A stretch of 63,972 bases of DNA, filler included, from Chiloscyllium plagiosum (GCF_004010195.1; 9 parts of 9 records of this genome joined end to end with filler, not necessarily neighbours in it), one strand, 5' to 3'. Shown: positions 8,116-41,521, counted from the whole stretch's first letter. The notes: generated by a model from the sequence alone, not told the origin. Translations and numbers: made by a program.

Positions 8116-8199
8116 TGAGTCTGAGAAAACGGTTATAAATAATGCCTTATTCATGTTAATCACAGATGATCTGTTTATCTCAGTTCGCACAACACTTAC

Positions 8200-16300: not shown

Positions 16301-18196
16301 CTACTCCTCCTGTTATGAATGGATGTGCAGCTGCAGCAGGCAGATTGGTGAAGATGAAGTCATTCCCTTTCCTTCGTTCCCTCACCACCTGCTGCAGACT
16401 TGGTTAGCAGCTATGCCTTCTAGGACTCGACCAGCTTGGTCAATAACGTTGCTATCGAGGAAATCCTGGTGATGCACTTTAAAGTTGGCCACCACAGAGT
16501 AGATTCTGTGCAACTGACATATGGGCGAGTATTGATTCGTCAGCCAAAAGGGTGAGAAATGAGGTTGTCAGCAGATTTCATTCTGCATGTTTCCAAACAG
16601 AACCACCCTTTTCCTTGATGGTTTGAGAATTAATGGGGTCCATGGGAACACCCATGGTAAGGCCAGCCTGATGTTCTCCCACTTCATAACCACATCTGCT
16701 GGGCCTTTCTGACGTTAGACAGAACCTCATTGAGAAAGAATATGGTCGAAGCATTCAAACCCGCCAGATGATATTTTTTTGGCGGGATCAGCTGCTCCTG
16801 ATTCAGGAAGCTCACCTGAAACGTTAAATAGGCAGCCTTCTTCATTGACACTAATCTAACCTGTCTAATGTTCTCAGCCTTGTTTCAGAATTTCTTCACT
16901 GACGGTTCACAGAAACAGACACTGCAACGTACAAATGGGGAGCAACTGTAAGCCATTTGGCCCCTCGAGCCCTATACCGCCACTCAACATGTTCATGGTT
17001 TTGATTACTCCAACACTCCCACCTCTCTCTCTGATGACCTTTCACCCACTTGCTAACCGTGATGTTCCCTGCCTCCACATTCAAAGACATACCAACTCTC
17101 TGTCTCTACCACCTTTTAGAGTCATAGAGACATACAGCACAGAAACAGACCCTTCGGTCCAACTCGTCCATGCCAACCAGATTTCCCAACCCAATCTAGT
17201 CCCACCTGCCAGCACCCGGCCCATATCCTTCTAAACCCTTCCTATTCATATACCCATCCAGATGCCTTTTAAATGTTGCAATCATACCAGCCTCCACCAC
17301 TTCCTCTGGCAGCTCATTCCATACGCGTACCACCCTCTGCATGAAAAATGCCCCTCATGTCTCTTTTATATCTCTCCCCTCTCACCCTAAACCCTCTCGT
17401 TCTGGAGGAAGGTTTTTTTCCGAGCTAAAAATAATATTTTCTACAGCACAGTGGTGACATCATTCTTGGATAACTGTAATTGCTGTATTCATTTAAAGAA
17501 AAATGTCTATGTATGGAAGTCATTCAGAAAATGCCCACGAGCCTGGAACCGGCAGGTTGTCTCAGGAGGAAAGGGGGAGTAAGCTTGGGTTAGATCAGCT
17601 GGAGATTAGAAGCGTAAACCCGCTAGACTTTCCTGAAATCTATATGTACCGCTGTCAAAATGTAAAATCAAAATGTCTAAACCCTGCAAGAGAAAAACCA
17701 AAAATCCTCATCTGCATCTTAAATGGAGAGCCCTTCTGTAAAAACAAAAGGGACAGCGATACATTTTGCCAGATTCTACAATAAGCAGTGACGTTGTCTC
17801 TGACTCCACTCTGTACATATGGATTTCAGGTAACTCACCTCTTACGCTTCTAAACTCCAATGGCTTGCCCAAACTTTCCACCTTATACAATCTGCCAGTT
17901 CGAGACTAATGCGCATTTTCTGAGTGACTTCGATACATTTACATTTTTTCTTTAAATAAGGACAGCCATCACACGCACAGTTATCCAAGAATGATTTCAC
18001 CACTGTCCTGTAGAAATTAGTAATTTTGTATTCGATTCCTCTGACAATAAACAACGATACTAAATTAGCATTCTGTTCAGTTGCTGTGCCTGCACACTTG
18101 TTCGTTCACGCACTAGCATACCCAGACCACTCGGGAACCGTGCGTAATCGAAAAGACCACATTCCAGTCATGAGGAAAGAGTAAAACCATGCATAC

Positions 18197-18559
18197 CAAA
18201 ATAGAGAACGAGAAGGTGTTAAGCAACTCTTTCCATTGCATCACAGCTGTATTCGCACAGAAGACGAGCGGTCATTTTCTTGGCACACGTTCATGGGCAA
18301 GTCGGACGCACGGGTCTGTAGACAAAAATGGCTCTGATCATAAGCAGCTGGGCAGCGATTGTGCTTTCTGATAACAAAGTTTTCAATGCATTTTATGTAA
18401 CTGATAATGTCCATGCAGATTGCCCATTGTTCGCAGCTGGCAGACTCCGTGCAAAAATAAGCATAAGGAATTTCGTTCCTTTTGTAAAGTTGCATTTAAA
18501 ATTACAGATGGCCTTTGCTGTCCAGACAAGCTAATGTGTTTCTCTGACTCCCATCGCGA
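18197..18559 (-). pseudogene. Decayed V-type Ig-domain exon of an unidentified receptor
   Basis: 363 nt between acceptor aaatgcAG| and donor G|GTATGC. Across frameshifts reads ISLSGQQRPSVIL(K)CNFTKG / YAYFCTESASC..CMDII / MTARLLCEYSCDAME. An upstream G|GTAAGC donor lies at 18730. Confidence 0.4.
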
Positions 18560-20599
18560 CTGCATTTAAAATCGAATTTTGGCGTCGTCACAGCAAACTC
18601 TTGTGTCCCTTTTCTGTCAGCAATAAGAGAAAGGCTGATCGCTCAAGGAGTCAAGAGCAATTTTGTCCAGGTTACTGTAGGCTTACATTTTCTAACTGTT
18701 CTTCAAAAGTATTGCGGAGGACTTGCTTACCATAATCACACCGAGTGAAAAAAACTCTTATTTTGTATAATTTCAGACGCTAGTGGTATGATGCAAATTT
18801 TCTGTCCAGTCCAAGCATCACAAGCATGTGAGGAGTATATGGTCCAGTATCTGTAATTGCTCATTATTATGCAACAGTAACGCGACACTTTAGTCAGTTA
18901 AGTTGATATATTTCTTAATTTGTTTCCAACTTCTTGCTAATATTCATGACGCTAATTATCATTTCCAGTTAGATACAGTTGAATGAGCATTATAACTAAC
19001 TCGTTATAAAAATTGTCATTGTGCAATGATCGCGTCTAAAGGTAACTGGATTATAGTGCTAACAGTTAACCTATACTCACGCTGTTAACTACATGAAATG
19101 TGGAATTCATGTTGTTATGCTCACTTGTCTTGTTCATTTATACATTGACGCAGATGTTCTATGCTGTCAGAAACACGCAACGACGATTATCCTCCAATTC
19201 ATTTAATGCACCAGTTAACCCAATAGCGATTAGAGGCAAAGATATTGCAATGGTAGGACATGATGTGAAGCAAGCCAATTAACTATGCACTTTAGGAAAT
19301 GCAGAAAACCAATTTGGAATACAAATGGAATGTTTTTTTAAGAATGTATTTAATACAAGAAAGCAAGAATGAACTCTTGGTCAGAAGGAAGGAAAACAAA
19401 TGATTGGGGCAAGTCAGGACCCAAGACCAAGAGGACGCAATTAAAATATTTTCTTCATATCAATTTGTTATGGACCAGACCAAGCGCCCTCAAAATATAC
19501 AGAAGGTACTCTAGACCCTAATTGTTTTCTTATTTTAGAAGTAAGTGCCAGGTGTTGCATCCTGGATTAGTCAAACTACCAGATTTAAAGCAAAACACAC
19601 TTTAATCATAGTTAAAACACAAGAAAAGAAGGAAGAAAATTGAATAATTTGACACTACTGGAAAATTTAACAGAATGAGAGATGATCCAACTACTAAACA
19701 GTAATTGTTCCAATGCAGTAACACCCTTTGCAAAAGGCAATTTCTGTATCACAGTTTATCTCAAATGCAATTCTAACAGCAGTAGAAAAAATATCAAGAG
19801 AAACCCCTGAGATAGAGTGAGCAGCAGGGAGAGATGTGTTGAGGCTCTCACCCAGCTTCGAGACCCCAGCAGTTATAAATGAAAAACAAATTAAAACTGA
19901 AAACGCTGGTTTTGTGGGAGTTTGTCCCATTCCTTCGGGCTGCTTCTATACTCATTACTTTTAAAAGAAACTCCACGCCTCACCGGCGGGTAACTTTATG
20001 GAACCCAATAGACAGCTTAGTGCCATTGTCTTAAAACCGTTCTTCAAAAAAACATAACAGGAACAAAATATACTTCTTAAGCCATAATAAAGTCACAAAT
20101 TAAAGTGACTAATACATGACAAACCAAAAACAAATGCCACAATTAATTGCAGGTTACTCAAATTAATAAGGCAAGTATGATTCCTCAGGAGTAGATAGCC
20201 AGTTTTCATTTATCTTCTTGTGGCTTGTCGTCAACGCTGCCTGGTCCAGAATTCTTTGCTCATCTTTAATTATATTTAAGAAGGTGGCCATGACCAACTT
20301 TCTGGAGAAGCTGCGGAATATAGCTGCAATAATAGCAATCTTTGGAAGGACGTTCAGTACTATCAGACTGCGACAGTGAAAGAACAGTGGTATGATTTGA
20401 TGACAGGATGCTGTGTGCTCAAAATGGAACGTGCAACTGGTGCTGTTAATGTGTGTGTGCTGGTAGCGATCATTTGGAAGGTGCTGTCAAAGGAGGTATC
20501 CTTACTGGATGCACTGCATTTTGCAAATGGAGCACACTGTATGGTGGAGACAGCCAATGCTCAATTGTGCAGTTAAAGTGCCAATCATGACTTTAGACG

Positions 20600-20798
20600 T
20601 TAGATTAGATTACAGTGTGCAAACAGGCCCTTCGGCCCAACAAGTCCACACTGACCCGCCGAAGCGAAACCCACCCATTCCCCTACATTTACCCCTTACC
20701 TAACACTACGGGCAATTTAGCATGGCCAATTCACCTGACCCCCGGGTCTCTGGCGCTGTGAGGCAGCAGTGCTAACCACTGTGCCACCGTGCCACCCA
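20600..20798 (-). mobile_element. V-SINE (HE1-like), internally deleted
   Basis: Reverse-complement SINE head (..ccactgtgccaccgtgccaccc) joined directly to the tail. Confidence 0.8.
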
Positions 20799-23358
20799 TC
20801 ATGTGGACAGCTTGCTAACTGTTATTGGGTTGCACACATCCAGACACGTGGATATTAGTTCATTTCACTCGTGACTTCGCCTGTGATGGTGGGCAGCCTT
20901 TGGAAATCAGGAGGAGTGTTTTGTTTTTATACTTGGGAGTCACTGGCCAGCCCACAAGTGGCAGAATCCCCAATCTTTGATGTGCTCCAGTAGTTGCAGT
21001 ATTTACATGATCTACTAGTTCACTTTCTGACCAGGGTAATCCCCAGAATATTAATAGTGAAGGATCAATTGCCATTGCCTTGCATTAGGTGGCACAAATG
21101 TAACCTGTTCCTGTCAGCCCAGCCCTGGATATTTCCTAGGTCTTGTTGCATTTGGAAAGAAGCTGATTTTGAAGCTGAGGATATGTGAGTGGCAATGATC
21201 AGTGAACACCCGCATTTCTCACTGTGTGATGGTGGGAATGTCAGTGATTAATTAATTGAGAATAGTTCTATTCATCGAAGATAACAATACTGCAGTACAC
21301 TGATTGACCACTACGTCTTAGCAACATGAAAATTCCCCCCTCTCTCTGTCTCTCTCTCTCTCTTATATATATATATAATTTATATATATATAATTTATAT
21401 CCACACATATACACAAGCTCTCTGGTCTCAATACAACTTCTGTGTCAAGGTCTGATATTGTCATGTCATTATTAGCTGAGGTAAAGTGATTAAGAGCTGG
21501 GAGGCCATGCTGAAACTGTATAAAATGTCCTTTAGGCTACAGCTAAATTATTGTGTGTAGTTCTGGAATTGGAATTCACATTATAGTACAGATGTGATCG
21601 CCCTGGGGAGGGTACAGATGAGATTGACCAAGATGTTGTCATTGTTGGGGCAAATAGATTGTTTGGAATTGAGATTATTTCCTTCAGAGTAGATGAGATT
21701 GAGAGGGCATGATGCAGGTGCATAAAACTATGAGGAAAATAGAGAGGGTGGGTGGGAATTAACTTCTGCCCTTGGTGGAGGGGGCCAGTGACCAGGGTTG
21801 AGAGGAGATGCAAGGATAAACGTTTTCACACAGTCGGAAGCTGACACTCACTGCTTGAAAGGTTAATAGAGGCAGTAATCCTCGTGGCATTTAACATGTA
21901 TTTAGATGCGCACTTCTGACGGCAAGCATGCAAATTTACAGGGCAAGTGATGGAAAATGGGATTAGAATTGTTCAGAGGTTGTTTTGGTCAGGGCAGAGT
22001 CAGTGGCCAAAAAGCCTTTTTCTGCGCTGACAGCTGTAAGAATCTATGGTTCAAGGACATGGGGTAAACATATTAAAGTTTGAAATGTCTCTTTCCAACA
22101 TCAATTATACCAGTAAACCAGTAACTGGGTTTCATTTCGCTTTTTATTTTAGAAAACAAAATGACTTAGGGAAAAACATTTACTACCATTTATTTTAAAC
22201 AAAAGAATTGGATTTATGTGCATTGTTCAACTTAATCGGGTTAAGACATTTCCTATTTATGTAATAACATAACCGTGTTCAAATATTTCACTTGCCCCAG
22301 GGATAGTAACGCTTTAACATTCCATGGTGGCTCATTCAATACTTCACTGAACTATTTCATGAATAGGAAGTATTTAGAGGGATATGGACCAAATGCTGGG
22401 AAACGGGACTACACTAATTGAGGATATCTGGTCGACATGGACGAGCTGGATCAAAAGGTCTGGTTCCATGCAGTACAACTCTATGAGTCTATGACAGGGT
22501 CTTTATTTCAAGGCAGCTATGAATGCCGTTTCAGGATGGTTCAGAGATTATCTGAAACCAGAGGTCGACATTTTCTGATAGCAATCAAAGTTAAAATGGT
22601 TTGTTCCACTAGTTGTTTCCAGACGTTTCTGTTTCCATGAAGCAATTGAGTTTGTAAAACAAAGGGTGTGCATGTATAGAATGAGCTGTCAGAGGAAGTG
22701 ATGGAGGCTGGTATAATTACAAATTTAAAAGGCATCTGGATGGGTACAGGAATAGAAAGGGTTTAAAGGGATATGGGCCAAATGCTGGCAAATGGGACTA
22801 GATTGATAAACATATCTGGGTGGCGTGGACAAGTTGGACCAGACGGTCTGTTACCATGTTGTACAGCTCCATGACTCTATGACACTTTATCACGTGTGCC
22901 ACTTGTTTACATGACTCGGGTATGGCAGCTATGCATTAGGAAGCATGAAGAACTGTGACCGCACGGTTCTGTAGCAGACATATCCCTGACGGTTGTCTGT
23001 CCAGTCCATCAATATAAAATGTTGGGAGTGCAGATTCCAAAGGCATCAGCAGCGTGGTGGGATCCATCTTCAATCGTGAGAAGGGTTTCGGAAGATTCCA
23101 TCCAAAATATTTACCTAAGATAAACAGAATTCAACTGTATTAATAATGTAGAGTTAATTATATCCAATGTATACTACCTATGATGCTTGCATGGACAGCA
23201 ATAATAGTTCCATATAATACCAGAGTATCAGGAAGCGGTTCCCAATCTAGCCAAGGCGAAGTTTTGGTCAACAGTTGCTCGTATTTCTCTCTTTGTTTAT
23301 GATTTCTTTCGTCATTAACAGATTTTTAAAGTCCAAGCTATTTCCTGTTTCATAATAG

Positions 23359-23698
23359 GACAAACGCTTGGAAACATCACGGTGATCCAGAGCCCACCCC
23401 CTGATTACTGCATCCGAAGGTGAAACTCTATTTCTGCACTGTATATGTAACGGGCAAATACGGATAGGTGCATACAAGTGGCACCTCTATGTTCGAGGGG
23501 GCACTGCAGTGTCCAACAAAACTGTGCACTACAGAGGGCGTGTGTTCTTTCCAGACAGGGAGGCCTGCTTGGTAACAAAAGATGCATCGCTAAAAATCAC
23601 TGACACCAAAATGAGTGATTCTGGAATCTATTATTGTGAAATGGAGTACACGATTTACGGAGCAAGATATGGGACAGGAACAAACCTTAAAGTGACAA
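23359..23698 (+). pseudogene. NCR3: NKp30/NCR3-like single-exon VJ-type Ig domain (+1 frameshift in C5 run)
   Basis: Acceptor cataatAG|GA, donor ACA A|GTTAGT, phase 1-1. GQTLGNITVIQSPP/LITASEGETLFLHCICNGQIRIGAYKWHLYVRGGTAVSNKTVHYRGRVFFPDREACLVTKDASLKITDTKMSDSGIYYCEMEYTIYGARYGTGTNLKVT shares NKp30 motifs IG..W, G..V.N.T..(F/Y)RGR, A.L.I.D, IY.C..E and G.GT.L.V. Confidence 0.8.
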
Positions 23699-24099
23699 GT
23701 TAGTATTTGATTACTGGTCTGGCCACTAATTCCCAGGCGAATTGTGGCAAAGTGTAACTTGGAACAAGGTCTTTCTTTCTGCATGACTGGAACTTCAGAG
23801 TTTTAAAGACTCAAGGGCTGATTCTTACGCTGAGATCTTCAGTGCAGGATGACCCGAACCTCAAAGAAATCAATTAACTCCAAACACTAACTAGAACTGG
23901 CATTCAGTTCAAAACCGCCAGATTTCATAGGTCACTTTCAATGGACAAAATCCACAGCTGATCGGTAGAACGACTTGTAGAATGAGGGAATAAATGCGCC
24001 AGGAGCAGGCACGTGGGACTAGTTTGATTTGGGATTATGTTCGGCATGGACTGTTTGGACCGAAAGATCTGTTCCCTTACTGTATGACTGTGTATGCCT

Positions 24100-24760
24100 T
24101 CATATTCACCTCGCCCACCTGTCCTGATGCCTTAAGTGATTGTTGTGCATGCACACCAAGGTCCCTCTGATTCTCGCTGCTTAGCAGAGAGCTACTATTC
24201 ATCAGCTATTTCCTTGTCTAGAGTGTGCTGCCAAGTGCATTCCAGATTGAGTGCCAGTTGCCACTGCCCAATCAACTCCCTCTTCCGTATCCTCTGTATC
24301 TAACTTTGTCCACCTCAGTATTTACCAGCCCCGCCCATTTTGAATCATCTGCAAACTTACTGATCAATCCTCCCACCTTCAAGTCAAAGCCATTTATCTC
24401 AACCGCAAACAGCACGGATCTCAACAATGACGGCCGAGGAACCCTACTGGACACAGACCTACTGCTGGAAAAACACCTCGCAGGAACTACCCTCTGCTTT
24501 CTTCCTCTCAGCCAACTGTGGGATCGAATGTGCCAAATTTCCTTGGGATTCCATGTTCTATTGGTCTCTCATGTCAAGATTTGCTTAAGTCCAAGTAGAC
24601 TACAGCAAAAGCATTGCTCTCCTCGACGAACAATTCAGTGAAGTTGGCCAGACATGACATATCCTTAACAAAACCATACTGACTTGATTAATCAGTGCAT
24701 CGCCAAAAGCAGGTTAATTCTATCCCTTGAAATGGTTGCAATATCTCCCATCAGCAAGGT
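24100..24760 (-). mobile_element. Degraded CR1 RT fragment
   Basis: GGLISKFADDSK motif. Confidence 0.8.
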
Positions 24761-25236
24761 TAGTCTGGACACACAAACAAAACATTTCCGAGCAAAGACT
24801 GTGAACTAAAAGAAAAAGAGTCTTGTTGACTTGGTGAAAGAAATAAACGACCTATCCTGAAAAGATTCACAATGCTTCTCGTCCCCTGAGTAGTTGCTGT
24901 CAAGTAGAAAAACCACACAATCTCTGCATAACGAGTGCCTCGCACAACCTGAAGTGCAAATACCGAACGATCAAGTCATTTCTTTTTAATTCTTCTTTTA
25001 GAAAAGTGCTACAACTTGTCGGTGAATCGCCTGAAGTAATGGCTTCAGTTTAATGGCCTAACATAAAGATGACACATGCGCAGATATGTGTTGCTCTGCT
25101 TACGTATGACAGAAAAACCCCACATAGAAAAATGTTTCAGTGGTGATGTATCCCGACAGTGATAGTGTTGCGATACATGTGAAATAACAAACAACACCCA
25201 TTTTCAAGTTTTAAACTAATGTTTGTTTTTGTACAG

Positions 25237-25293
25237 ATATACGCTAATCACAGAATGAATGGAGAACGATAACTATCAAAAGTACAATAACAA
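25237..25293 (+). pseudogene. Putative Thr-rich stalk exon of the NKp30-like gene (in-frame stop)
   Basis: tttgtacAG|..|GTATGT, 57 nt, phase 1-1: NIR*SQNEWRTITIKSTIT. Confidence 0.5.
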
Positions 25294-25344
25294 GTATGTT
25301 ATTTATTTTTTTTTTGTTTTGATCCTCCACCCACATGCCATCAG

Positions 25345-25520
25345 ATCCAGCTAATGCCACAAGGATCCTTTGGACCACCAGAGCAGTGGTAAAGGTTGGA
25401 TTGGTCCTCACAGCGATTTACTTCAATCGACGCTCCTGTCCCATTAAAGATACTAACGCTGAAACTAAAGAACCAGAATTTTTTTTTATTCACATTTGCA
25501 CAGGGAAGGACATGGATTAG
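25345..25520 (+). pseudogene. Putative TM/cytoplasmic exon of the NKp30-like gene
   Basis: catcAG|AT CCA (phase 1): PANATRILWTTRAVVKVGLVLTAIYFNRR.. Arg near the TM start as in NKp30; four residues shorter than the paralogous TM at 38139. Confidence 0.6.
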
Positions 25521-27229
25521 AGTCATACAACATGGAAACAGCCGGTTTGGCCCAGCTAGCCCATGCTGACCATGTTTCCAAACTAAACTAGTCCTACCTG
25601 CGAGGGCATGGACCTTTCCTGTTCGTGAACTTATTCAGAAGTCTTTTAAACGTTGCAACTGCACCTGTATGCACAGCTTTCTCTGGAAGTTCATTCTACA
25701 CACCAGCCGCTCTGGATAAAAAAAAATTAAATCTTTCTCCTCTCGCCCTTAAAATATTTCCTCTAGTTTTGAACTTCTCCGTCCTGGGGAAAAGAGCCTT
25801 GTCATTCACCTTATCTATGCTCCTCATGATTTTATAAACTTCAGTAAAGCCACCCCTCAACCTCCTACGCTCCAGTTAAAGGAAGTCCCCGTCTTTTCAA
25901 CTTATTTTTATGGCTCAGACTCCCCATTGCCGGCAACATTCTAACAACAGGACCGTTATCTTTAGATGTTAATCCAGGTAATATGGAATTTGAATTCTAC
26001 AAAAGTGCAGAATTAAGACTGTACTGGTGACCACAGTCCCTTTTTGCAGCCCTTACCTGAGCTTGCTTCCATGTGACCCCAGGTCCCCAGCAAAGTTGCC
26101 AATAAACGTTGGCCGAGCCAGCGACATCAACATCCCATGAATGAATTTAAATAAAACCAAGGCAATCATAAAATCACACTCAGAATGCCCACTTCACTCA
26201 ATGGAAATCGACTTTCAACATACTTTTCCTTTCATAATGAAATTCAAGTTATATTTGTACTTTCATTTCATGGTTCTCCTCCACCCCCGCCCCCACCCAC
26301 TTTAGTTCAACTGTCGCTTCAGTGGAGAGTTCACCGCCAGAACTGGGGCTGGCTAATAACTTACCTGATTTTACGAGATTCCTGTGAGTTTAATTTTCAT
26401 TTCATTTTTTTCTTTTTAATTTTGATGCAGAGCTAAACTGCAAACAACCTTGTTTGCACTGCTGGGTGAACGGTCCTTAAGATCGAGTTTGCTTCATTTT
26501 AGCATTTAGTATTAAAGTTGCTTGGCTGCACTGAGACCTTTCCTTCATTCAGCTTGCCGCGTTACTGTGCTTTCTCCGTCAGTAAAGGCTAAAAAGAGAA
26601 ACGCTGCCTCGTCATGGTTTGAGCTCAGACAGATTTTGGTATAGAAGGATTCATTGAATTTCCTTGCCTCGGTTTCCATTTTGTACCGCTTTGGGATTTT
26701 GGGGTGAGTCTTATTTTGTCCTTGTCTTAACCATATGTAGAAGAATATAAACAGGATTAGCCTGTTCAGTTTTTTTTTCCAAATATCAATGTTAGCCATA
26801 CCCTAACTCCGCCTGACTACCTCAGTACTGTAACCCTTAAGGACTTCACAAATGGAAATGCATCTCAGTTTTGTATGTTCCAACTCTGTTTCCTGAATCA
26901 ACAACGTTTTAAAGGAAGGTAATGTTTTATATTTCCACGGCATGAAAAAGTGAGTTTTGGCAATTTCACTGAACGCCGTAACTATAATTTTCAGATTACT
27001 GTTTTAGATGACGTTCCGAAAGTCGCCCAGTAAAAGTTTTATTTCACCATATATGATATGAGATTCTTAGATCACGTCGATAACTCAGTTAGATGCGTAG
27101 TTACTCAAAGGAAACAGTGATTTCAGTAGAAAAACCAGTTATCATAATTTAATCTATCCTGCCTAGTATCAGTCTGGGACAGCTGTCTTGCGCCATCTCC
27201 GTGGTCACCATGTACTCGCTGGCTGTACT

Positions 27230-28903
27230 GTACAGAACGGGTTGAACCAAAACATAGAATGCAGGGAAATATTTGGTGGCATCTTGAAAAATGTCCATAT
27301 TACAGAGGAGGGAGTGATGGATGTCTTGAAATGTGTAAAGATGGATAAATCCCCAGGATCTGATCATGTGTACCTTACAACTCTGTGGGAAGCTAGAGAA
27401 GTGATTGCTGGGCCGCTTGTTGAGATATTAGTATCATCGATAGTCACAGGTGAGGTGAGGGAAGACTGGAGGTTGGCTAGGGTAGTGCCACTGGTTAAGA
27501 ACGGTGGTAAGGACAAGCCAAGGAACGATAGACCAGCAAGTTTGATGTCAGTGGTGGACAAGTTGTTGAAGGGAATCCTGAGGGACAGGATTTACACGTA
27601 TTTGGAAAGGCAAGGACGGATTAGGGATATTTAACATGGATTTGTGCGTCAGAAATGATGTCTCACGAATTTGATTGAGTTTTTTGAAGAAGTGACAAAG
27701 AGAATTGGTGAGGGCAGAACAGTGAACGTGATCTCTCTGGACTTCAGTAAGGCGTTCGACAAGGTTCCCCATGAACACTGATCAGCAAGGTTAGATCTCA
27801 TAGAATACAGGGAGAACTGGCCATTTGGATGCAGAACTGGCTCGAAGGTAGAAGACAGAGGGTAGTGGTGGAGGGTTGCTTTTCAGACTGGAGGCCTGTG
27901 ACCAGTGGAGTGCCACAAGGATTAGTGCTGGGTCCACTACTTTTTGTCATTTACATAAATGATTTGGATACGAACATAGGAGGTATAGTCAGTAAGTTTG
28001 CAGATGACACCAAAATCGGAGGTATAGTGGACAGCGAAGAAGATTACATCAGATGGCAACTGGATCTTGATCAGACGAGCCAATGGGCTGAGGAGTGGCA
28101 GATAAAGTTTAATTTAGATAAATGAGAAGTGTTGCATTCTGGGAAAACAAATTTTAGCAGGACTTATACACATAATGTTAAGATCCTCCTAGCGAGTGTT
28201 CCTGAACAAAGAGACCTTGGAGTGCAGGTTCATAGCTCTTTGAAAGTGGAGTCGCAGGTAGATAGGATAGTGGAGAAGGTGTTTGATATGCTTTCCTTTA
28301 TTGGTCAGAGTATTGAGTACAGGTATTGTGATGTCATTTTGAGACTGTACAGGACATTGGTTAGACCACATTTGGAATATTGTGCACAATCCTGGTCTCC
28401 TTTCTATCGGAAGGATTTGAAATTTGAAAGGGTTCAGAAAAGATTTACAAGGATGTTGCCAGGGTTGGAGGGTTTATAGGGAGAGGTTGAATAGACTAGG
28501 GCTGATTTCCCTGGAGCGTTGGAGGCTGAGGGGTGACCTTACAGAGGTTTATAAAATCATGAGGGGCATGGATAGGGTATATAGACAAGGTTATTTCCCT
28601 AGGGTGGGGGAATCCAGAACTAGATAGCATAGATTTAGGGTGAGAGGGGAAAGATTTAAAAGTCACCAAAGGGGCAACGTTTTCACACAGAGGGTGTTCG
28701 TGTATGAAATGAGCTGCCAGAGGACGTGGTGGAAGCTGGTAAAAGGCATCTAGATGGGTATGTGATTCGGGAGGGTTTAGAGGGATATGGGCCGGGTGCT
28801 GGCAAGTGGGACTAGACTGGGTTGGGATATATGCTCAGGATGGACGAGTTGGACCAAAGGGTCTGTTTCCGTACTGTACATCTCTATGACTCTATGATTC
28901 TAT
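27230..28903 (+). mobile_element. 5'-truncated CR1-type LINE (HER1-like), RT domain with stops
   Basis: DKSPG.D, DWRLA.VVPL.K, SGVPQGLVLGPLLFVIYINDL, KFADDTKIGG, LYRTLVRPHLEYC; (ctctatga)n tail at 28882. Confidence 0.95.
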
Positions 28904-31900
28904 AACAACTCTGTCAGGTGTCGGGTTTATGTTCGAGCTACTGGAATGGGAAGTGGAACAACCACCTCCTGACTCAGTGACAAAATATCTCGAACTTGGC
29001 CACTGTGAATAAGTTAAGAAAGAACGAGACCTTTAGAAATGCTTAATAATCATCATGCTTAAAGTTATTTTTTCTTGTCTGGAAGTTGAGCTAAATGTTG
29101 TTTGATCAGTCAAATTGAGTCTTAATGAAGCATTCCGATAATGAATGGTCTAATGTGCATATCTTACTGCAATTCTGGACAGGACAATGGGTGATACTAC
29201 TGAAATGCAGAGCTTCGGAAGTCAATATCAAGAATAGCTCCAGTCAAACATTTTCTCCCAGTATCAGTGAAGTCGTCTCTGAGAAACTTGGAATTCAATA
29301 ATGATATGAAGCTTCTGGCTGTAGAAGACCAAGCTGTGAAGGACTGATGGAAACAGCCGTTCTTTGGAACTACACAGTCAAGATTGTTGCTTCTGTGTTT
29401 GCTCGGGATTTTTCATTAAACTAGTCTTTGGATGAGAGGGCCGTGGTACAAATCAGTAGCCTACTGATTGATTACTTCCCCGCCATCCCAACAGATTGGT
29501 ATTGCAGCAGTCTACACACGCAGGGATATTATTAGTTCTGATAAAAGTTCACTGGACTCGAAACGTTCATAGCAGCTGCTCACTCCGACCTTGCAGTAGG
29601 ACCTGCAGATTCAGTGGGTGAGCTGCTCTTTTTCAAATGATATCACATGCAAAGTCATTGCGTGTTTGAAGAAAATAAGTATTGGGAGTTAGAGAAGAGC
29701 ATTGGTGGACAGACCCAGGACCTGGGGGGCGGGGGTGGGGGGTGGCGATCCAGGTCAAAGGAGATAAGAATGGGACCACCCAGGGCAGGGGAATGACCGA
29801 GACAGAGCAAGAGGGAACCCAAGACACCGAGGTGGCAGATAGAGGGTTCAATCCAGGTGGAATGATGGGCTGAGAGTATGGGAGCAGTGAGGACAGGTGA
29901 TGTTGTGAGCGAGGATGGGGGAGAGAGGATGGAGAGGCCATCAAAGAGAATCAGGGAGTGAGGATGGGAGGTTGTGAGGAAAGAGGAGACAATGAGGCCG
30001 GGAAGGCTGTGATGGAGGATCGGGGAAGTCAGAAAGGGGGAGGAATGAGGAATGAGGATGCTGGGTGGGTGTTGGTTGTCATGAGGATGGGAAGGATGCG
30101 TGGATGTGTGTGGTTGTCGGACTGAGGTGGAGTGAGAACTGGTGATAGCATGTGAAGACAAGAGTAGAAGGGTGCACTGGAGAGGATAGGGTGTGGAACC
30201 ACCAGGATATCTGTGTTGAAGTCCCAGAGATAACATTTCTGGGCACGTTCATTGGAAAATATTAGCTTGGTTAACTTTCGCTGTCTGTCCCACAGTCACA
30301 GTCCAGTCCCACAGATGGGAAAATCAAAGTGTCTGATAGACTGCACCACTAGTCTGGCCAATTGTTTGACCAAGTTGCAGTGTAGCAAAGGAGTAATTTC
30401 TGGCATCACCCAATCCCAGCTGAAGAACATAAACATGTGGAAGAATTATTTGAATTAGTCCCAGAGTGGGAAATGGCTGTCTCATTAAATGAGAGAGTGA
30501 GACTCAATGAGATTCTTGTAGAGAGGGGAGGAGCTCTCCTCTCTCCTCCTCCCTCTGCAAGGATCTCAGTGTGTGTGTGTGTCTCTCTCTCACTGTCATA
30601 TCCTCGGCCCTGAAACTCTTCAGCCACCTCCTGAAGCAGATTCGCTACCACAGCCACATCCAATTCCTCAGTTTCTTCTCCTCCTGTGTCATTAAATACC
30701 TAGTACTAACGGGCAAAGGGAACATTTCTCACACTGTTTTCAATCTATCCAGGGGGGAAAGGAACAGCGTCAGATCCATTCTCCCATCCCTTCCCAGAAG
30801 AGAAAAAATAACATTTTTAGGATCATAGCATCGTCACCGTCAGATGCGGAGAAACGTTCTTCTGCACTTTGCAGGAATCGGAGCAGACAGGAAAGTGACC
30901 ATCCAACAGAGCAAAGGTTAAGCAAGTTGCGACCTTACACTGGGGTTCAGAAAAATGAAAGGTAATCTCCTTGGAACATATAGGATTCTTAAAGTGGCTC
31001 AGCAGGGTAAATTCTGGAGAAACTCAGCAGGTCTGACACCATCTGTGGAGGCAACTAGAGTTAACGTTTCGAGACCAGTCATCTAGTCTATTCAGATTTC
31101 TAACGTTTGCAGTTTTTTTTTTGTTTTATTTAAATGCTGAGAGGATGTTTCTCCTTGGGAAGGTCTAGAGCCAAGAGAGCAGAGTCTCCGAATACAGAAG
31201 CGTCGATTTGAGACGATGAAAATAAATTTCTTCTCTCAAGGGTGGTGAGTCTCTGCAATTCCTTGCCACCGAGAGCTGTGGGGGCAAAAGCCTTGTGTAC
31301 ACTTCAGGCTGAGTTCGATCGGTCCTTGATCAGTCGAGGAATCATGGGTTATGGGAGAAGGCAAGAAAGTGGGTGTGATGAGAATCAGATCTACAGTAAT
31401 CCTATGTAATGGTGAAGCAGGTTTGATGCTGTGAACAGGCTACTCCTGGTCCTGTTGCTCATGGTCTATCATCCAGCTACATGTACTAAGTTTGTAGATA
31501 TAGAATCGTTTCGAATTCGTCACTTAAGACTAGGTTAGTAACTGAATATGCAAGCATAGATCCCAACCCCAGCTTTTCAACATGGCAACCATAGATAGAG
31601 ACAAAAGCGCCCAGAAAATGACGTCTGGTAGGAGATAGTCATTGAAGAGTGTTGGATTTATTCTGACACTTCAACCAAACTTTAGCAAAGACTATACAGT
31701 ATTGATCACGAGGGCCTGGAAACACATAGCATTTATCTTAAAGAAATGAGCTATTATTGCATTATGCAATAATAGTTAACAAGTATTCATGAAGTCGGAG
31801 AGAGTGAGGACTGCAGATGCTCGAGATCAGAGTCCAAAAGTCAGGCATCCGAGGAGCAGGAGAGTCGATGTTTGGAGCACAAGCTCTTAATCGCGAATAT

Positions 31901-32086
31901 ATCTTTATCAGAAAGTATTTATGAAGTAACTGTCATAAGAAGGACGGTCCTGGAAATAATTGACATCTAACGGAACCTATCAGGGTCTAGTAGGCGTTGT
32001 CATTAGTGAATGTCCATCACCCTCAAGAGCCAGTCACAGATTGATCACACACCCTTTGATCCAATTAGACATTAGCTTCGCTTCAG

Positions 32087-32348
32087 GTAGCCCAATCAGA
32101 ATGTAGTAAAAGCATTGCGCGTGCAGTCGGTTGTGACTTTAAAGTAGCTAATAAACAGCTACTTTCAGTGACTAAAACACAATCTGCAAACGTGAAACTG
32201 AAGTCTGCAGAACCTGCAGCCCAATGAAAAATGGAAGACCACAGAATTGTCGTGGCGAGACGTGAGACCGAATGATTACCTCATGCAGTCGAAGCTGAAC
32301 CGGAAAGCAAGGACTGGAGGACAGCCAGACAGTCGCTTCTCGACTTCG
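32087..32348 (+). pseudogene. Possible decayed short Ig-domain exon
   Basis: One frame reads NVVKALRVQSVVTLK*LINSYFQ*LKH..TTELSWRDVRPNDYL, with stops at the expected B-strand Cys and C-strand Trp; ends at G|GTAAAT. Confidence 0.3.
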
Positions 32349-32842
32349 GTAAATACTACCTGAAAACTGAAGCTTCCCGAGTTACCTTACCAGAGTCTCA
32401 TGTTACTTAAATAGTAAAAAATTCAAACATACAAATAGGTATTGGGATTGAGCTTTCAGTTAAAAGCATATGTTCTTGCATATGTTCCTTTGTGAGATTT
32501 GTTTGCATGTTTGTTGCACGGCCACTTATTTTTTTCTCGTCCAACTGAAATTGAACAGTTCATGAAACGCAAAAATCAAATCAATCCGAGAGTTGAACTG
32601 TTCACTGAAAGGAAGTGTTCTGGTGAGAAACCTGCAACACCGAAAGGAATTGGAGCGGCTCAGCCGAATCTTTGACTTGGCGCTGCCGTGCAATACCGTC
32701 AGCGCTGAACACTTGTTACACTCTACTCTCCCACAAACCCTCCATATCCTTTGATTCTCTGAGAAATTAAAAAATAACCAATCTTAAATGAACATGGATG
32801 ATGACGAACTCATAAACACCTCAGATTGAGAATTTTAAGTAT

Positions 32843-33365
32843 TAGAACATAGAACATACAGCGCAGTACAGGCCCTTCGGCCCTCGATGTTTCACTGCCC
32901 TGTGAAACCAATCTGAAGCCCATATAACCTACACTGTTCCATTCTCGTCCATATGTCTATCCAATGACTATTTAAATGCCCTTAAAGCTGGCGAGTCTGC
33001 TACCGTTGCAGGCAGGGCATTCCACGCCCCTACTACTCTCTGAGTAAAGAAACTACCTCTGACATCTGTCCTGTATCTATCATTCCTCAATTTAAAACTA
33101 TGCCCCCTCATGCTAGCCATCATCATCCAAGGAAAAAGGCTCTCCCTCTCCAACGTATTTAACCCTCTAATTATCTTGTATGTCTCAATTAAATCACCTC
33201 TCAATCTTATTCTCTCTCACGAAAGCAGCCTCAAGTCCCTCAGCCTTTCCTTGTAAGACCTTCCCTCCATACCAGGTATCATCGCAGTAAATCTCCTCTA
33301 AACCCTTTCCATGGCTTCCACATCCTCCCTATAATGCAGTGACCAGAACTGCACGCAACACTCCA
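32843..33365 (-). mobile_element. CR1 LINE 3' fragment
   Basis: RGDLIETYKII..FFTQRVVGAWNALP; (agaacat)n tail. Confidence 0.88.
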
Positions 33366-33639
33366 AATATTCTGTCGTCTCTGAACAAATAATTTCTCCA
33401 TCTCTCAATCCTAAGTGACCCAGGCATTACCCAGGCGTGTACTCACATGTTATGCCAGCCAGGGGTAATTACCACACAGTCTTTATCATAACAAGCCCTT
33501 TCAGTCTCTTCTTTATTATTGGGATCACCTCTAATGCCTCGAAAGTCCAGAAAGTTTCAAGAGAATGTCTGTTATAATATCAAACACTCAGCACAAAAAA
33601 AATCAATGCAATGAAACGTCACTTTTGAAAACATAAACA

Positions 33640-34400
33640 GAAATTGCTGGACCCAGTGAGCTTTCTTCAGAATTGATTACAGATCAGAAATAGTAGGGAT
33701 ATGTGCCAAACATGGACTGAGGGTGGGGGTAGAGGGAGGAGTAAACGATAGGTGAAGAAATGGGTAAAGGTCAGCCTGTGAGAATCAATGGCTGCTCATG
33801 GGGATCAATGGTAGCTGATAATGACTTGGTTTTGTAGTTGCCCATGCGATGACAAGGCCTGGTGTGTGGGTGTTGGGATGACCATATGGGAGAAGATACG
33901 CAAGCTCTAAAGTTGATGAACTCGATATTGAGTCCTGAAGGCCATAGGGTCCCAAGTGGGACATGAGAAGCTGTTCTTCCAGCTTGCGTTGAGCTTTCAG
34001 CAAGCTGGAGACAGAGATGCTGGCCAGGGAGTATGGTGGGTGGTTTGAAGCGTCAGGCAACAGGAAGCTCAGGGTCATTGCTGTGGACTAAAAACGATTC
34101 CCAAGCCTTTGTTTTATCTGGCCAATGTAGAGGCCACCTTGTGAGCAGCGAATACAGTAGACTGGATTGAATGAAGTGCAGGTAAACCCCTGTTTCACCT
34201 GGAACGTGTGTCTGCTGCCTTGGATATTGAAGAAGGATGAAGTACATGGGCAAGTGTTACACCTTCTGCCCTTGCATGGGAAGGTGCTTGGGGGCTTGGA
34301 GTGGTTGTGGTGAGGACATGTTGCGAGTGGAGGAGCAGTGGAGGAGAATGTCCTGCAGGGAAGGTCCCTACCAAAGGCTGACAAAGGTGGAGTTGGGAAT
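33640..34400 (-). mobile_element. Penelope-like element fragment (Zn-finger + GIY-YIG endonuclease)
   Basis: TFPCKGRRCNTCP..FTCTSFNPVYCIRCSQGGLYIGQIKQRLGNRF and RKLEEQLL; partial CUGAAGA hammerhead box near 33664-33670. Confidence 0.85.
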
Positions 34401-34826
34401 ATATAATGGTGTGTTCAGTGAAGGTGGTAGGAATGGTAGCTTATGAGCCTTATTGCTACAGATCTTTATCCTGAAATGGTCAATGCTGTGTTTTATATAT
34501 GCTAAAGAACAAATTCCTAATTGGAGTTATTATTATTGGCTTAAATCATAATTGAGTTCAGGAATAAACATCTATGTCTAACTGGAAGGAATAATATACT
34601 AGAATATTTCACTCCGGAGCACTTTATTTCTCTCTGTGGGGATTATGACAAGGAAGGGGATCATTTATCTCCTTGATTTCTATGAGATAAATGTGATTGG
34701 TTTTGCATAGAACCAAGCGTTATGCAATGAAAGGTGCTTCATATCATTTTGGCACGAAATTGGAATGTAGCTATGTAAGCCAGATAGTACAATTCAGTCA
34801 TCGTTAATTTTTTTTGTTATTTTCAG

Positions 34827-35043
34827 CGTCTAAGAAGGGAATTTCCTCAGTAACAAATTCCCAGCTTCTCCAATCCCTAAGCCACCTGCCATCTTTCCTT
34901 CCCCGTTTCTTTGTCAGGATCCAGAAACTCCCGACACAGAATCCTTTTACGAGTTGCTGCACCATACTGACTGCAGTACCCATCAACGTCTCAAGGGTAA
35001 CGTAGGGGTCAGCAAGAAATACCCACTTCTGAAGAATGAGTAA
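34827..35043 (+). pseudogene. Two putative cytoplasmic exons (34827-34849, 34918-35043) encoding an ITAM-like tail
   Basis: Pyrimidine-rich acceptors (ttattttcAG, tttctttgtcAG) and matching phases: xSKKGISS|DPETPDTESFYELLHHTDCSTHQRLKGNVGVSKKYPLLKNE*. Confidence 0.45.
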
Positions 35044-36099
35044 GATACATGCAGCCAATGGGGGAAGCCAATGAGTGAATTCAATCCAACGATGGTTCGG
35101 CGGTATTTTCGTCAGGCAACAGAAAACCACAACCATCATAGGAAGGGAGAATTTTGCAATAGGTATATTTGGTGAAGAGAAGCATTTTTTCAAGGTTTGA
35201 AAGTTCCTCATAGAAATAAAGCATTAACTGAAATAAAGTGCAAAAGGCTAATTATTACCTAGCTTGCAAGCATAACAAATAAAGACCAAGTGTAAGATAT
35301 GATGCCGCTATGTAACATGATTGAGATTTCAGTGCCGAGTTGACAATGGTTGAGACCCTCAGAAACACCCTTATTACTAAGGTTACAGTCCCGAAGTTGA
35401 GCTCACTGTCAGAAGCAATTACTTTTTTCATGTTTTCAATATTATAATACTAACTAGTAAGATTTACACCGAATCACTGCACAAGCTCAAAGCGAATGTT
35501 AGAAACCGAAATAATGGAGCACACGCTAATCTCAGGGAATAAAGAAGTAGGGAGGGAGGAGTGGAAGGTTTGGAAAGGTAAATGGGAAAATATAAAAACG
35601 CATCAATACATCATTTTATGTTCTGTCCTGAGGCTTTTCTGAGGATGGTCACGAGAACTACAGTTCGACTTTCGGGCCTACATTTCACTGACTTTCCCTT
35701 AACTTTCCCTAACTCCAGTGATACACTCAAATGGAGTTACATTGTCTGGCACATTTGCGTTGACGTATGGGGCAACTTCGATCAGAGTGATGCTGGAAAA
35801 GCACAGCAGGTCAGGCAGCATCCAAGGAGCAGGGAAATCGACGCTTCAGGCAGAAGTCCTTCATCAGGAATAGAGAGAGGAAGCCTCCAGGGTGGGGAGA
35901 CATGGGGTAATTTGCTTAGTCAGGACATGATTTGGAAGAATTCGGCAATATCTTCAATGATCAACACCACTCTGCTCGAGCTAAAGCCGTAGTGCACAAG
36001 GGTAAACCTGAAATGCGCAATTTTATTCTATTCAAAGTGAGGGGAGGCAATCGGCATACTTTAGACATAAAAATGAAGAGGAAGAACTAACGCACACAA

Positions 36100-36603
36100 C
36101 TGGGTCCCAGGTTCGATTCCAGCCTCGGGCGACTGTCTGTGTGGAGCTTGCACATTCTCCCGGTGTCTGCGTGGGTTTCCTCCGGGTGGAGAAAGTGAGG
36201 TCTGCAGATGCTGGAGATCAGAGCTGGTCTGTGTGGAGCTTGCACATTCTCCCGGTGTCTGCGTGGGTTTCCTCCGGGTGGAGAAAGTGAGGTCTGCAGA
36301 TGCTGGAGATCAGAGCTGGAAATGTGTTGCTGGAAAAGCGCAGCAGGTCAGGCAGCATCCAGGGAACAGGAGAATCGACGTTTCGGGCATAAGCCCTTCT
36401 TCAGGAATGCTCCGGGTGCTCCGGTTTCCTCCCACAGTCCAAAGATGTGTAGGTTAGGTGAATTGGCCGTGCTAAACTGCCCATAGTGTTAGGTGCATTA
36501 GTCAGAGTGAAATGGGTCCAGGTGGATTACTCTTCGGAGGGACGGTGTGGACTGGTTGGGCCGAAGGGCCTGTTTCCACACAGGAGGGAATCTAATCTAA
36601 TCT
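36100..36603 (+). mobile_element. V-SINE with nested Penelope-derived insert and 92-bp tandem duplication
   Basis: Insert 36281-36409 flanked by CTCCGGGTG (36272-36280, 36410-36418); 36135-36226 is repeated at 36227-36318. Confidence 0.88.
36373..36408 (-). ncRNA. Minimal hammerhead ribozyme motif (best-preserved copy of this repeat family)
   Basis: Minus strand AUUC-CUGAAGA-A-GGGC-UUAU-GCCC-GAAAC-GUC-GAUU. Confidence 0.75.
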
Positions 36604-37377
36604 TTTCAAAGTACCATCACGGTTGATATGTTTTCGCTGATTGGTGAGTCACGGATAATCAATTGCATATGTGTTTCCAAAACAGTCTCAAGTAAGTCAC
36701 AATGCGAGAGTCCTTCTGAGAAGTGACAGCATATAAACACAGATCTTTATGAAATAAAGTTCAGTCTTGAATTGCCAAGTTGACATCATGTAAGTTTCAA
36801 TAAGTCCATTATTCCTTTCTACGAACCTCTCCTTTTTGCAGCTCCTCCATCAAGACCTTCGATCCTGTCTTTCTACAACACACTATATGAGAAGAAGGTT
36901 CATGTATGTCACGGGAAATCCAAAAGAAAGTACAAGGCAGAAGTCCAATATCGCTTCATAGGTCCACGTGCATCTGCTATTGTGGCGCAATTCACCAACC
37001 AAGTCCATTTCCGCTGCGTCACAATTCAAATAGATACATCTGAGCGGAGCCGGCACGAGGTGGGTAATTGTTGGCAAGAGTATATTTCAATACAGTTTCG
37101 AAATCTCGAAAATACCGGAATCTCAATCCCCAATGACATTTCAGTTCATCTTGCAAAACCTGCTCAATGTGAACATTGCTGTTCACAAAGCTGGAGCGTC
37201 GAATTTACCCTAGTTCTTTAAGAAGGGCCAGATCGATCATTGGAAATTGGACCGCGCTGTTCAAAACAAGCTCAATTTGCAACAGAAATTAGTTCCTAAT
37301 GGATATTCTCCTGGCAACGAATCTCGCTGCTCTTGTCAACACACGGGAAGAGTTATAGACCGTGGAGGAAAGTGTCT

Positions 37378-37630
37378 GGGCGGCACGGTGACTGAGTGGG
37401 TTAGCACTGCTGTTTCACAGCACCAGAGACATGGGTTCAATCCCAGCCTCGGGCGACTGCCTGTGGAGGTTGGACATTTTCCCCGTGTCTGTGTGGGTTT
37501 CTTCCCAGACTCCAAAAATGTGCAGGTTAGGGTAAATTGCCCATAGTGTTCAGGGATGTGTAACTTAGGTACATTGGATAGGGATAAGTGTAGGGGAATG
37601 GGTCAGGGTGGACTTATTAGCCTGTTTCCA
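37378..37630 (+). mobile_element. V-SINE (HE1-like)
   Basis: gggcggcacggtgactgagtgggttagcactgctg head and V-domain remnant. Confidence 0.8.
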
Positions 37631-38138
37631 TAGTGTCGGGAATATAATCTAAGAAACACATTGGTGTCCAGAAAAATGATCATACCGTTGGGGGTAGATT
37701 TCAGGAGGAAGAGAAACACTATGCGCTTTGGAGAAATGTGAGCCGTTTTCCCCCTTCCTTTGATATCCTCAACCCTGAAACTAAGGGCGCCTCAAATATG
37801 AGCTGTTGTCTTCTTTTGGCGTTTGGAAACATTTGAAGTTGGGTGAAAGGCGGAGGGTGGGTGCGTGGCTGAAGGGGAAATGGAATTGGGGGCTGACTTC
37901 TTGCTCAGCAGCTGTTCGAGAAGCTCAAGGCTGGACGATCCAAACCCCCATACTATCCCTCCCCTCAGCTGGAAAACCCGTGCAGCAAGGCCCTGCTGAA
38001 AAGAGTCTGTAATAGATTGACCAGAACCTCAAAGACCACTCCACTTTGAGCTGGTGACAAAGCACCAGCTCGCTATAAAAGCTGACTACACGCACCACAA
38101 GTAGTAAACAAAGCTGCTGAAGCATTTGCTGTCCTTAC

Positions 38139-38245
38139 CTCTTCCGACGGAAGCAGACTGCTCCGAAGATCCCACCGATACCCAGTAAAGTTACCACCGC
38201 GGCACGAACACACCACAATATCTGTACGTCGCTCATGACGACCGT
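38139..38245 (-). CDS. Transmembrane exon with intramembrane Arg (5' end cut by linker), paralogous to the NKp30-like TM
   Basis: TVVMSDVQILWCVRAAVVTLLGIGGIFGAVCFRRKR followed by a strong donor AG|GTAAGG; open reading, basic stop-transfer sequence. Confidence 0.65.
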
Positions 38246-38528
38246 NNNNNNNNNNNNNNNNNNNNNNNNNNNNNNNNNNNNNNNNNNNNTTAATTAATTA
38301 ANNNNNNNNNNNNNNNNNNNNNNNNNNNNNNNNNNNNNNNNNNNNACAGACACACACACAGACAGACACACACACACACAGACTCTGGATTAGTGGTGCT
38401 GGAAGAGCACAGCAGTTCAGGCAGTATCCGAGGAACAGTAAAATCAATGTTTCGGGCAAAAGCTCTTCATCAGGGATAAAGACAGAGAGCCTGAGGGGTG
38501 GAGACACACAGACTCTCCAGTCCCTTAC

Positions 38529-38807
38529 CCCACTAATAGAGCTGGGCCTCTGCCAGGCTGCTGTGTTCAATGTGACGGGAGTATTGATCCTCATCCCCAG
38601 CATTGATCTCAATCTCTTTCTGGATCTGATGGGTCCCATCGTGGTTCGGTTGAACCCCCGAGGAATGTGTCTCAGACATGACCTCTCCATTCCTTAGCCA
38701 GGTCACCTCGATGTCTACAGGATAAAACCCAGTGACCAGGCAGGAGAGAGTGAGCGGCTTGTCCTGACAACTGGGCTCCCTCCTGGAGATGAACACTTCA
38801 GGCTGAA
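38529..38807 (-). pseudogene. MHC class I alpha3 exon (Cys>Arg, premature stop)
   Basis: VQPEV..LSCLVTGFYPVDIEVTWLRNG..PNHDGTHQ..QYSRHIEHSSL..LY*W; acceptor catcacAG, donor G|GTAAGG. Confidence 0.92.
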
Positions 38808-38923
38808 CTGTGATGGGAAAGGGTGAAAACACAAACAATAGACAGACACTGAATGGAATGGGAGAGCGGTTTCATAGATCAGTGAGGTTAGATCAAAACG
38901 TGGAGCAAAACTGAAATACATAC

Positions 38924-39174
38924 CTTTCCTTGTGAAATAATCCTTTCCAACTTCCAGATATCTGTTTAAATGTTCAACAGATGTTTTTTGCAGATATGAT
39001 TCCCAATAGTAGTTCCAGGATTGATCTGAATTCCATTTCTCTTTATTGATCACTGCAAAGTGATTTGCGGCAACCCATCTCATTCTGTCTGGCTCTAAAC
39101 TAATGTGGTCCTTTCCATCAAATCCAAATCTCATTGATCTCTTAATGCTGCCATCATCACTGACCTCAACAGGT
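38924..39174 (-). pseudogene. MHC class I alpha2 exon (5' deletion/frameshift, helix Cys>Ser)
   Basis: EVSDDGSIKRSMRFGFDGKDHISL..WVAAN..A...KEKW..YLQKTSVEHLNRYLEVGK; donor G|GTATGT; first beta strand missing after the acceptor. Confidence 0.9.
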
Positions 39175-39255
39175 CTGATCAGAGGGGAAAGGGTTCCAAT
39201 CTCAAGTTAAAGTTGCAGAATTAGTTGACAGTCCTCATTTCACTTTACATTCCAA

Positions 39256-39490: not shown

Positions 39491-39522
39491 GATAATGTGG
39501 ACAATTGACGGTGAGATTTTTC

Positions 39523-41421: not shown

Positions 41422-41521
41422 NNNNNNNNNNNNNNNNNNNNNNNNNNNNNNNNNNNNNNNNNNNNTTAATTAATTAANNNNNNNNNNNNNNNNNNNNNNN
41501 NNNNNNNNNNNNNNNNNNNNN

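What the first reader, a model, noticed from the sequence alone, without database searches (positions are those of the whole stretch)
17420..38245. Candidate cluster of non-rearranging activating-type IgSF receptor genes, mostly decayed and hidden among TEs
Within one linker-free piece, the non-TE sequence repeatedly resolves into splice-bounded, phase-1 receptor exons. These are an NKp30-like V-stalk-TM(Arg) gene (+, 23359-25520), a paralogous ILWxxRA TM exon (-, 38139-38245), an eroded V exon (-, 18197-18559), a possible eroded Ig exon (32087-32348) and an ITAM-like tail (34918-35043). Charged TM residues and ITAMs are the established signature of activating immune receptors. My inference is a birth-and-death family of shark NK-type receptors, with this copy of the cluster largely pseudogenised. 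The ORF track shows only fragments of it.
Basis: partly seen in the sequence, partly recalled or inferred. Interest (0 to 1): 0.8.

Follow-up and report, generated by a model that had tools for sequence, protein, structure and literature searches.

The report
Dead shark NKp30-family gene, over-read neighbours
This shark DNA holds one broken copy of a known family of NKp30-like immune receptor genes, which likely once switched immune cells on, plus the tail end of a possible second copy, while the other proposed receptor pieces score no better than chance.

Summary
One gene is real: a germline-joined VJ exon (23359-23698, +) with stalk and Arg-bearing membrane exons. Its best PDB matches by sequence and by fold are human NKp30, and its relatives are shark NCR3-family proteins. 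It is a pseudogene: an extra C shifts the frame, the stalk exon has a stop, and no leader was found. Of 6 public contigs over the exon (3 organism labels), 5 carry a frameshift or nonsense change and 1 is undetermined. Against organism B the exon has diverged as fast as its intron, 10 amino-acid to 3 silent changes. The membrane exon at 38139-38245 is modestly supported as a paralogue (2 of 60 shuffles reach its score). The 'eroded V' and 'Ig' segments score as background; the 'ITAM' has 20-residue spacing. Multigene shark NCR3 clusters are already annotated, and this scan noted similar decayed copies on other DNA. Residual interest: this V is at most 45% identical to any relative found, so it may be an unsampled subtype.

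The parts
23359..23698 (+). VJ-type IgV exon of an NCR3/NKp30-family pseudogene (340 nt, phase 1-1, one base too long)
   Evidence: Pfam V-set 6e-12; best PDB sequence and fold matches human NKp30; family profile 117-124 bits versus about 12 for shuffles
23397..23401 (+). C run with one extra base; shifts the frame after the first strand of the V domain
   Evidence: Window sequence. Same length in X5, X6 and X14; one base shorter (in frame) in X1 and X18
23659..23661 (+). GGA codon that reads TGA in contigs X1 and X5
25237..25293 (+). Likely stalk exon, 57 nt, phase 1-1, Ser/Thr-rich, in-frame TAA at 25245-25247
   Evidence: acceptor rank 16 of 1967, donor rank 61 of 1626; no significant protein match, so inferred from position and splice signals
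25345..25520 (+). Membrane and terminal exon with Arg (25380-25382) in an ILWxxRA motif; short tail without Tyr; weakly hydrophobic (best 19-aa Kyte-Doolittle 1.46); preceded by a 51-nt intron with a weak acceptor
   Evidence: resembles the newt NCR3 membrane segment P0142 (2 of 1000 shuffles for that pair; 11 of 200 when all 85 tails are searched)
38139..38245 (-). Open membrane exon with ILWxxRA motif, cut by the end of the piece; possible paralogue, rest of gene missing
   Evidence: Best match to the 25345 exon in the piece, 2 of 60 shuffled pieces reach the score; not significant against the family membrane profile, 11 of 30 shuffles reach it
18197..18559 (-). Claimed eroded V exon: not supported
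32087..32348 (+). Claimed eroded Ig exon: not distinguishable from background
   Evidence: 17-19 bits (0-1 of 40 local shuffles) but within whole-piece shuffled maxima of 16-21 bits and lacking the YxC strand in the traceback
34918..35039 (+). Claimed ITAM exon: strong acceptor and open frame with one acidic YxxL, not an ITAM; identity unknown

Best explanation
The region holds one broken gene of the shark NCR3 (NKp30) family, a germline-joined V exon followed by a likely stalk exon and an arginine-bearing membrane exon, which likely encoded an activating receptor and is now likely drifting without selection. Shown: the V exon, its family, the frameshift, the stalk stop and further null changes in other individuals and species. 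Inferred: the ancestral protein would have paired through the membrane Arg with an ITAM adaptor (CD3-zeta or FcR-gamma type), as human NKp30 does, and bound a B7-family ligand; it arose by duplication in the NCR3 family and died. The membrane exon at the piece's end is probably the remnant or end of a second, oppositely oriented family member. The other three claimed segments are most likely unrelated intergenic sequence with chance splice-like signals.
For: Family: the 4 best PDB sequence hits are human NCR3; ranks 1-3 by fold are NKp30 (model pLDDT 92); top single-domain relatives are shark proteins, among them two nurse-shark NCR3 entries. Death: +1 base in the window, X5, X6, X14; TGA in X1, X5; +1 A at 23638 in X18. 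Versus organism B, 15 of 340 exon sites and 15 of 359 upstream intron sites differ; 10 amino-acid to 3 silent changes, where 77% amino-acid changes are expected without selection. Stalk TAA, 51-nt intron, no leader above chance in 14.4 kb upstream (best score 30, shuffled maxima 25-36). Others.
Against: Contigs drop minority alleles, so an intact allele cannot be excluded; X1 and X18 lack the 5' frameshift and the window lacks the nonsense change. The X18 insertion is 19 bases from the contig end at depth 5.4. X10 is undetermined. The difference table was cut (35 rows hidden), so the 10:3 count is of listed changes only and is small. Neutral-looking ratios also occur in positively selected immune receptors. 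The V domain keeps both cysteines, the tryptophan and the J motif. The tree gives the V no starred parent group and had no outgroup. The profile test loses power beyond about 25% extra decay (17 of 20 detected at 20%, 2 of 20 at 30%), so very old relics are not excluded. MHC linkage could not be tested.
Confidence: 0.82

Rival explanations
1. One reading: the 21 kb are the ruin of a dense cluster of three to five activating receptor genes, and 18197-18559, 32087-32348 and 34918-35039 are very old exons beyond detection.
For: Shark NCR3 genes do occur in tandem (Heterodontus entries XP_067865365-396 on one contig). 32087 beat 39-40 of 40 local shuffles with two V profiles. Strong splice-like pairs exist at 18731/18613 and 17839/17683 (-) and at 34918 and 30875 (+). 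A third membrane-like stretch lies at 35464-35574 (-).
Against: None exceeds whole-piece background; no Pfam or PDB match; organism B contigs are no better conserved over 18102-18641 (23 changes, 27 gap letters) than elsewhere; phases do not fit; only 1 of 85 family tails has ITAM spacing.
Confidence: 0.1
2. The gene is a segregating pseudogene: functional alleles still exist in organism A or its relatives, with nulls at high frequency.
For: The two V-exon lesions lie on different alleles (X1 in frame with a stop; window and X6 shifted without it); X1 and X14 keep a consensus GTGAGT donor. V and membrane exons are phase-compatible, so the stalk stop could be skipped.
Against: 0 of 5 informative contigs is open; exon diverges like intron; no leader found; membrane segment short and weakly hydrophobic.
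Confidence: 0.06
3. The V exon belongs to another non-rearranging V family (UrIg/PRARP, CD28-like, SIRP-like) or is a germline-joined Ig/TCR pseudogene.
For: Identity to any relative is at most 45%; some relatives carry automatic names such as SIRP-beta-like or pIgR-like.
Against: NKp30 ranks above all Ig, TCR, PD-L1 and SIRP chains by sequence and fold; no C1 exon found between V and membrane exon; no proline motif after the second cysteine as described for CD28-family V domains.
Confidence: 0.02

Closest known systems
Shark NCR3 family (nurse shark MT914154-914161 listed in PMC12227049; Kinlein et al. 2021, title seen in reference lists only; QTT61904 and QTT61898 found as P0050 and P0034)
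   Same: Single-exon VJ domain with the family's invariant columns; charged-membrane, short-tail design as in P0050, P0145, P0004
   Different: Only 37-45% identical to its nearest sampled relatives, long branch, no starred subtype; broken
Human NKp30 / NCR3 (PDB 3PV6, 3NOI, 6YJP)
   Same: IgV fold with a helix before the E strand (TM-score 0.80-0.83); membrane Arg and no tail motif; positions matching B7-H6 contacts Ile50, Gly51 and Glu111 are kept (alignment, contacts; numbering inferred)
   Different: About 34% identity; other contact positions differ; multigene rather than single copy; ligand and adaptor untested
Mouse Ncr3 pseudogene (PMC6514059 passage)
   Same: An NCR3 gene lost by point lesions while close relatives differ in state
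   Different: Here one of many paralogues is lost, so the receptor type survives
UrIg / UrIg2 and PRARP non-rearranging VJ-C1 genes (PMC12227049, PMC10751288)
   Same: Germline-joined VJ exon
   Different: No C1 exon found here; V is closest to NCR3

Membership tests
NCR3/NKp30 family | V and J parts in one exon, ending in a G-x-G-T strand and a phase-1 donor | tested here: met
NCR3/NKp30 family | Nearest relatives by sequence and fold are NCR3 proteins | tested here: met
NCR3/NKp30 family | Nested among NCR3 V domains in a rooted tree | tested here: inconclusive
   Tree of 51 domains from 35 chosen proteins plus the window V, no outgroup; placed with shark members at 81/94, unstarred
NCR3/NKp30 family | No constant (C1) domain between V and membrane | tested here: met
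   No Ig match other than the V in 207 stretches; repeat-masked parts not scanned
NCR3/NKp30 family (activating type) | Basic residue in the membrane segment, short tail without tyrosine motifs | tested here: met
   Arg at 25380, no Tyr after the membrane segment; the exon's link to the V is inferred from position and phase
NCR3/NKp30 family | Linkage to the MHC | not testable with these tools
   No genome held; neighbouring pieces of the window are separated by linkers
NCR3/NKp30 family | Binding to B7-H6 and pairing with an ITAM adaptor | not tested
   No complex prediction run; the gene is broken
Functional gene | Leader exon and open frame through V, stalk and membrane exons | tested here: not met
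ITAM (34918-35039) | Two YxxL/I motifs 6-8 residues apart (consensus recalled) | tested here: not met
   Spacing 20; 4 chance pairs with 6-8 spacing and 41 acidic YxxL/I motifs occur in six frames of the piece
Ig V or C domain (18197-18559, 32087-32348) | Profile match above background with Cys, Trp and YxC in register | tested here: not met
   power ends near 25-30% extra decay
CD28 family | Proline motif in the loop after the second cysteine (PMC11599192 passages) | tested here: not met
   No proline in that loop

The most novel reading that the evidence does not exclude
This is a deep-branching, so far unsampled activating NCR3 subtype that is being lost across a group of related sharks through several independent null alleles (a slippage-prone C run, a nonsense change, a second frameshift), with a sister copy just beyond the contig end and intact orthologues still working in other sharks.
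Probability: 0.25. Interest if true: 0.4.

Novelty: new member of a known kind. Interest (0 to 1): 0.2.

Why it matters
NCR3 is one of the few germline-joined VJ genes discussed as relatives of the antigen-receptor ancestor, so each divergent shark subtype adds to that record. This copy documents turnover in the family with allele-level evidence. It does not reveal a new receptor class or mechanism.

Tried and rejected
No own genome is held, so synteny and copy number were not tested. Word-indexed protein searches with the V alone found nothing (0 of 87 longer and 0 of 1 near-length candidates): weak evidence that no close orthologue is catalogued. No shark locus in metagenome contigs (0 of 124 pattern matches). 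The ESM Atlas could not read the sequence. No RNA holder was listed. About 2% of single-cell poly(A) run X21 was laid and gave no reads on the V exon; uninformative at that depth and library type. Only 17400-27260 and 23000-23985 were laid, so 32087, 34918 and 38139 have no cross-species data. tblastn of 150, then 196 proteins against the piece gave no hit besides the V exon and SINE-like matches. A 21-22 bit V-profile hit ending at 22631 (-) overlaps a repeat and was taken as chance. The idea that 34918 is a family tail exon failed (171 of 200 shuffles as good). The idea that 18148-18612 (-) is a cysteine-rich ectodomain got no Pfam or PDB support. In one search the 35600 stretch was entered in a frame other than the membrane-like one, so that row says nothing; one search is its test. 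Kinlein 2021, Flajnik 2012 and Ohta 2015 were not held; their figures and supplements may already include this subtype. Five literature searches showed no listing that names this locus; subscription papers are not covered.

Full report
Setting. The window is a chain of separate shark sequence pieces joined by N-linkers, several with Ig heavy, Ig light and MHC class I-like exons (names from my recall of the motifs). The finding lies in piece 8902-38245, with no gap inside 17420-38245. Neighbouring pieces are not evidence of linkage. No whole genome is held. LINE- and SINE-like repeats cover many stretches (depth).

The V exon. 23359-23698 (+) has an acceptor and a phase-1 donor. The frame from 23386 matches Pfam V-set at 6e-12 and ends in a J-like G-x-G-T strand, so V and J are joined in the germline. 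The 4 best of 168 PDB sequence matches are human NCR3. An AlphaFold model from a 56-row alignment (pLDDT 92) has NKp30 at ranks 1-3. The HMMER search of cluster representatives gave 264 hits, 150 listed. I looked up names for 20 of them: shark, ray, bichir and amphibian proteins, including two nurse-shark NCR3 entries and a run of near-consecutive Heterodontus accessions on one contig. A profile search added 47 proteins, mostly named NCR3-like. In a tree of 51 domains the window V sits on a long branch among shark members, at most 45% identical to any row, with no starred parent group and no outgroup.

The gene is broken. The exon is 340 nt; an extra C at 23397-23401 shifts the frame after the first strand. 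Six contigs from public runs cover the site. X6 and X5 (organism A, one study) have no gap against the window, so the shift is not an assembly error. X1 (organism A, another study) lacks the extra C but reads TGA at 23659, as does X5. X14 (organism B) has the shifted length with two other letters. X18 (organism C) lacks the extra C but has an extra A at 23638, near its end and at depth 5.4. X10 (organism B) starts at 23384 and its gaps were not listed. So 5 of 6 carry a lesion and 1 is undetermined. Against X14, 15 of 340 exon sites and 15 of 359 upstream intron sites differ (Fisher p = 1); 10 of 13 codon changes alter the amino acid, against 77% expected without selection. The table was cut, so these are listed changes only. 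The likely stalk exon has TAA in frame, the next intron is 51 nt, and no leader scores above shuffles in 14.4 kb upstream. The membrane exon has Arg, a best hydropathy of 1.46 and a tail without tyrosine.

How it likely worked. Human NKp30 has one IgV domain and a membrane Arg that pairs with CD3-zeta or FcR-gamma (PMC6514059, passages; PMC12272517, passages) and binds B7-H6 (PMC3135353, passages). The window gene has this design, and 19 fetched relatives have a comparable basic residue in the membrane segment. That the ancestor activated cells through an adaptor is an inference; nothing was tested for binding.

The second membrane exon. 38139-38245 (-) is open for 35 codons and hydrophobic (2.06). 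It is the best match in the piece to the 25345 exon: score 40, reached by 2 of 5000 peptide shuffles and 2 of 60 shuffled pieces. Against the family membrane profile it is not significant (11 of 30), nor against 85 family tails (22 of 200). Its strong donor (rank 7 of 1601) is phase 2; alternatively the frame ends at the stop just behind it. I rate it a probable but unproven paralogue whose V lies beyond the piece.

The other three. Of 207 stop-free stretches, only the V passed a Pfam cut-off. Twelve read-through frames over 18150-18620 and 32040-32400 gave no Ig family, and three PDB searches gave nothing below E = 1. With frameshift-tolerant profiles 18180-18575 scored 12-14 bits (6 to 28 of 40 shuffles as good). 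The test detects the real V after 20% further mutation in 17 of 20 trials but after 30% in 2 of 20. 34918-35039 has a strong acceptor and weak donor; its YxxL motifs are 20 residues apart, it matches no family tail, and such single motifs occur 41 times in the piece.

Prior knowledge. PMC12227049 (passages) calls NCR3 a non-rearranging, MHC-linked VJ gene and lists eight nurse-shark entries. PMC10751288 (passages) says the same of NKp30. Kinlein et al. 2021 was seen only as a title in reference lists; its content is recalled. PMC11599192 (passages) supplied the CD28-family motifs. PMC11372145 has no mention of NKp30. Earlier notes of this scan describe NCR3 clusters with pseudogenes in other shark genomes and on another piece of this genome; none matched this DNA by sequence. 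They are unchecked and were not used as support.

Verdict. One ordinary pseudogene of a known family, perhaps of an unsampled subtype, with a possible neighbour. The multi-gene activating cluster with an ITAM is not supported. Interest 0.2.

Noticed in passing
window 17427-17649 (+) and 17813-18027 (-): Inverted pair of about 220 bp, 74% identical, low copy in DNA runs; each arm has a TTTCTACAG acceptor-like site. Old MITE or inverted duplicate of a decayed exon.
   Followed up: partly
window 18731-17683 (-): Two strong donor/acceptor pairs bounding 117-nt and 155-nt gaps (ranks 12/10 and 4/2) around a cysteine-rich 84-aa frame; could be a compact decayed gene of unknown kind; no homologue found.
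   Followed up: partly
window 35464-35574 (-): Third membrane-like stretch with Arg and an early stop; best score in the piece on the family membrane profile (14.5, above 30 of 30 shuffled maxima), but pyrimidine-rich and without a clear acceptor.
   Followed up: partly
window 30875-30916 (+): Strong acceptor (rank 3) followed in phase 1 by 14 codons that resemble the start of family V exons, then a stop and repeat-like sequence; profile score not significant.
   Followed up: partly
window 36784-37218 (+): 145-codon open frame with an acceptor at 36842 (rank 11); no Pfam or PDB match.
   Followed up: partly
window 23699-23704: The V donor is GTTAGT in the window and X6 but GTGAGT in X1 and X14, a further sign of decay on the window's allele.
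   Followed up: yes
window 17400-27260: Organism A contigs X1 and X5 differ from the window by about 1% throughout the unique parts, X6 by 0.3-1.2%: divergent haplotypes or populations.
   Followed up: no
window 38346-39950 (-): Separate piece with three MHC class I-like exons; the third has a stop and lacks the second cysteine (label from recall).
   Followed up: no
window 1-8801, 40051-42551, 44000-55000, 60029-63972: Other pieces carry IgNAR-like and Ig light-chain-like constant exons (labels from recall).
   Followed up: no
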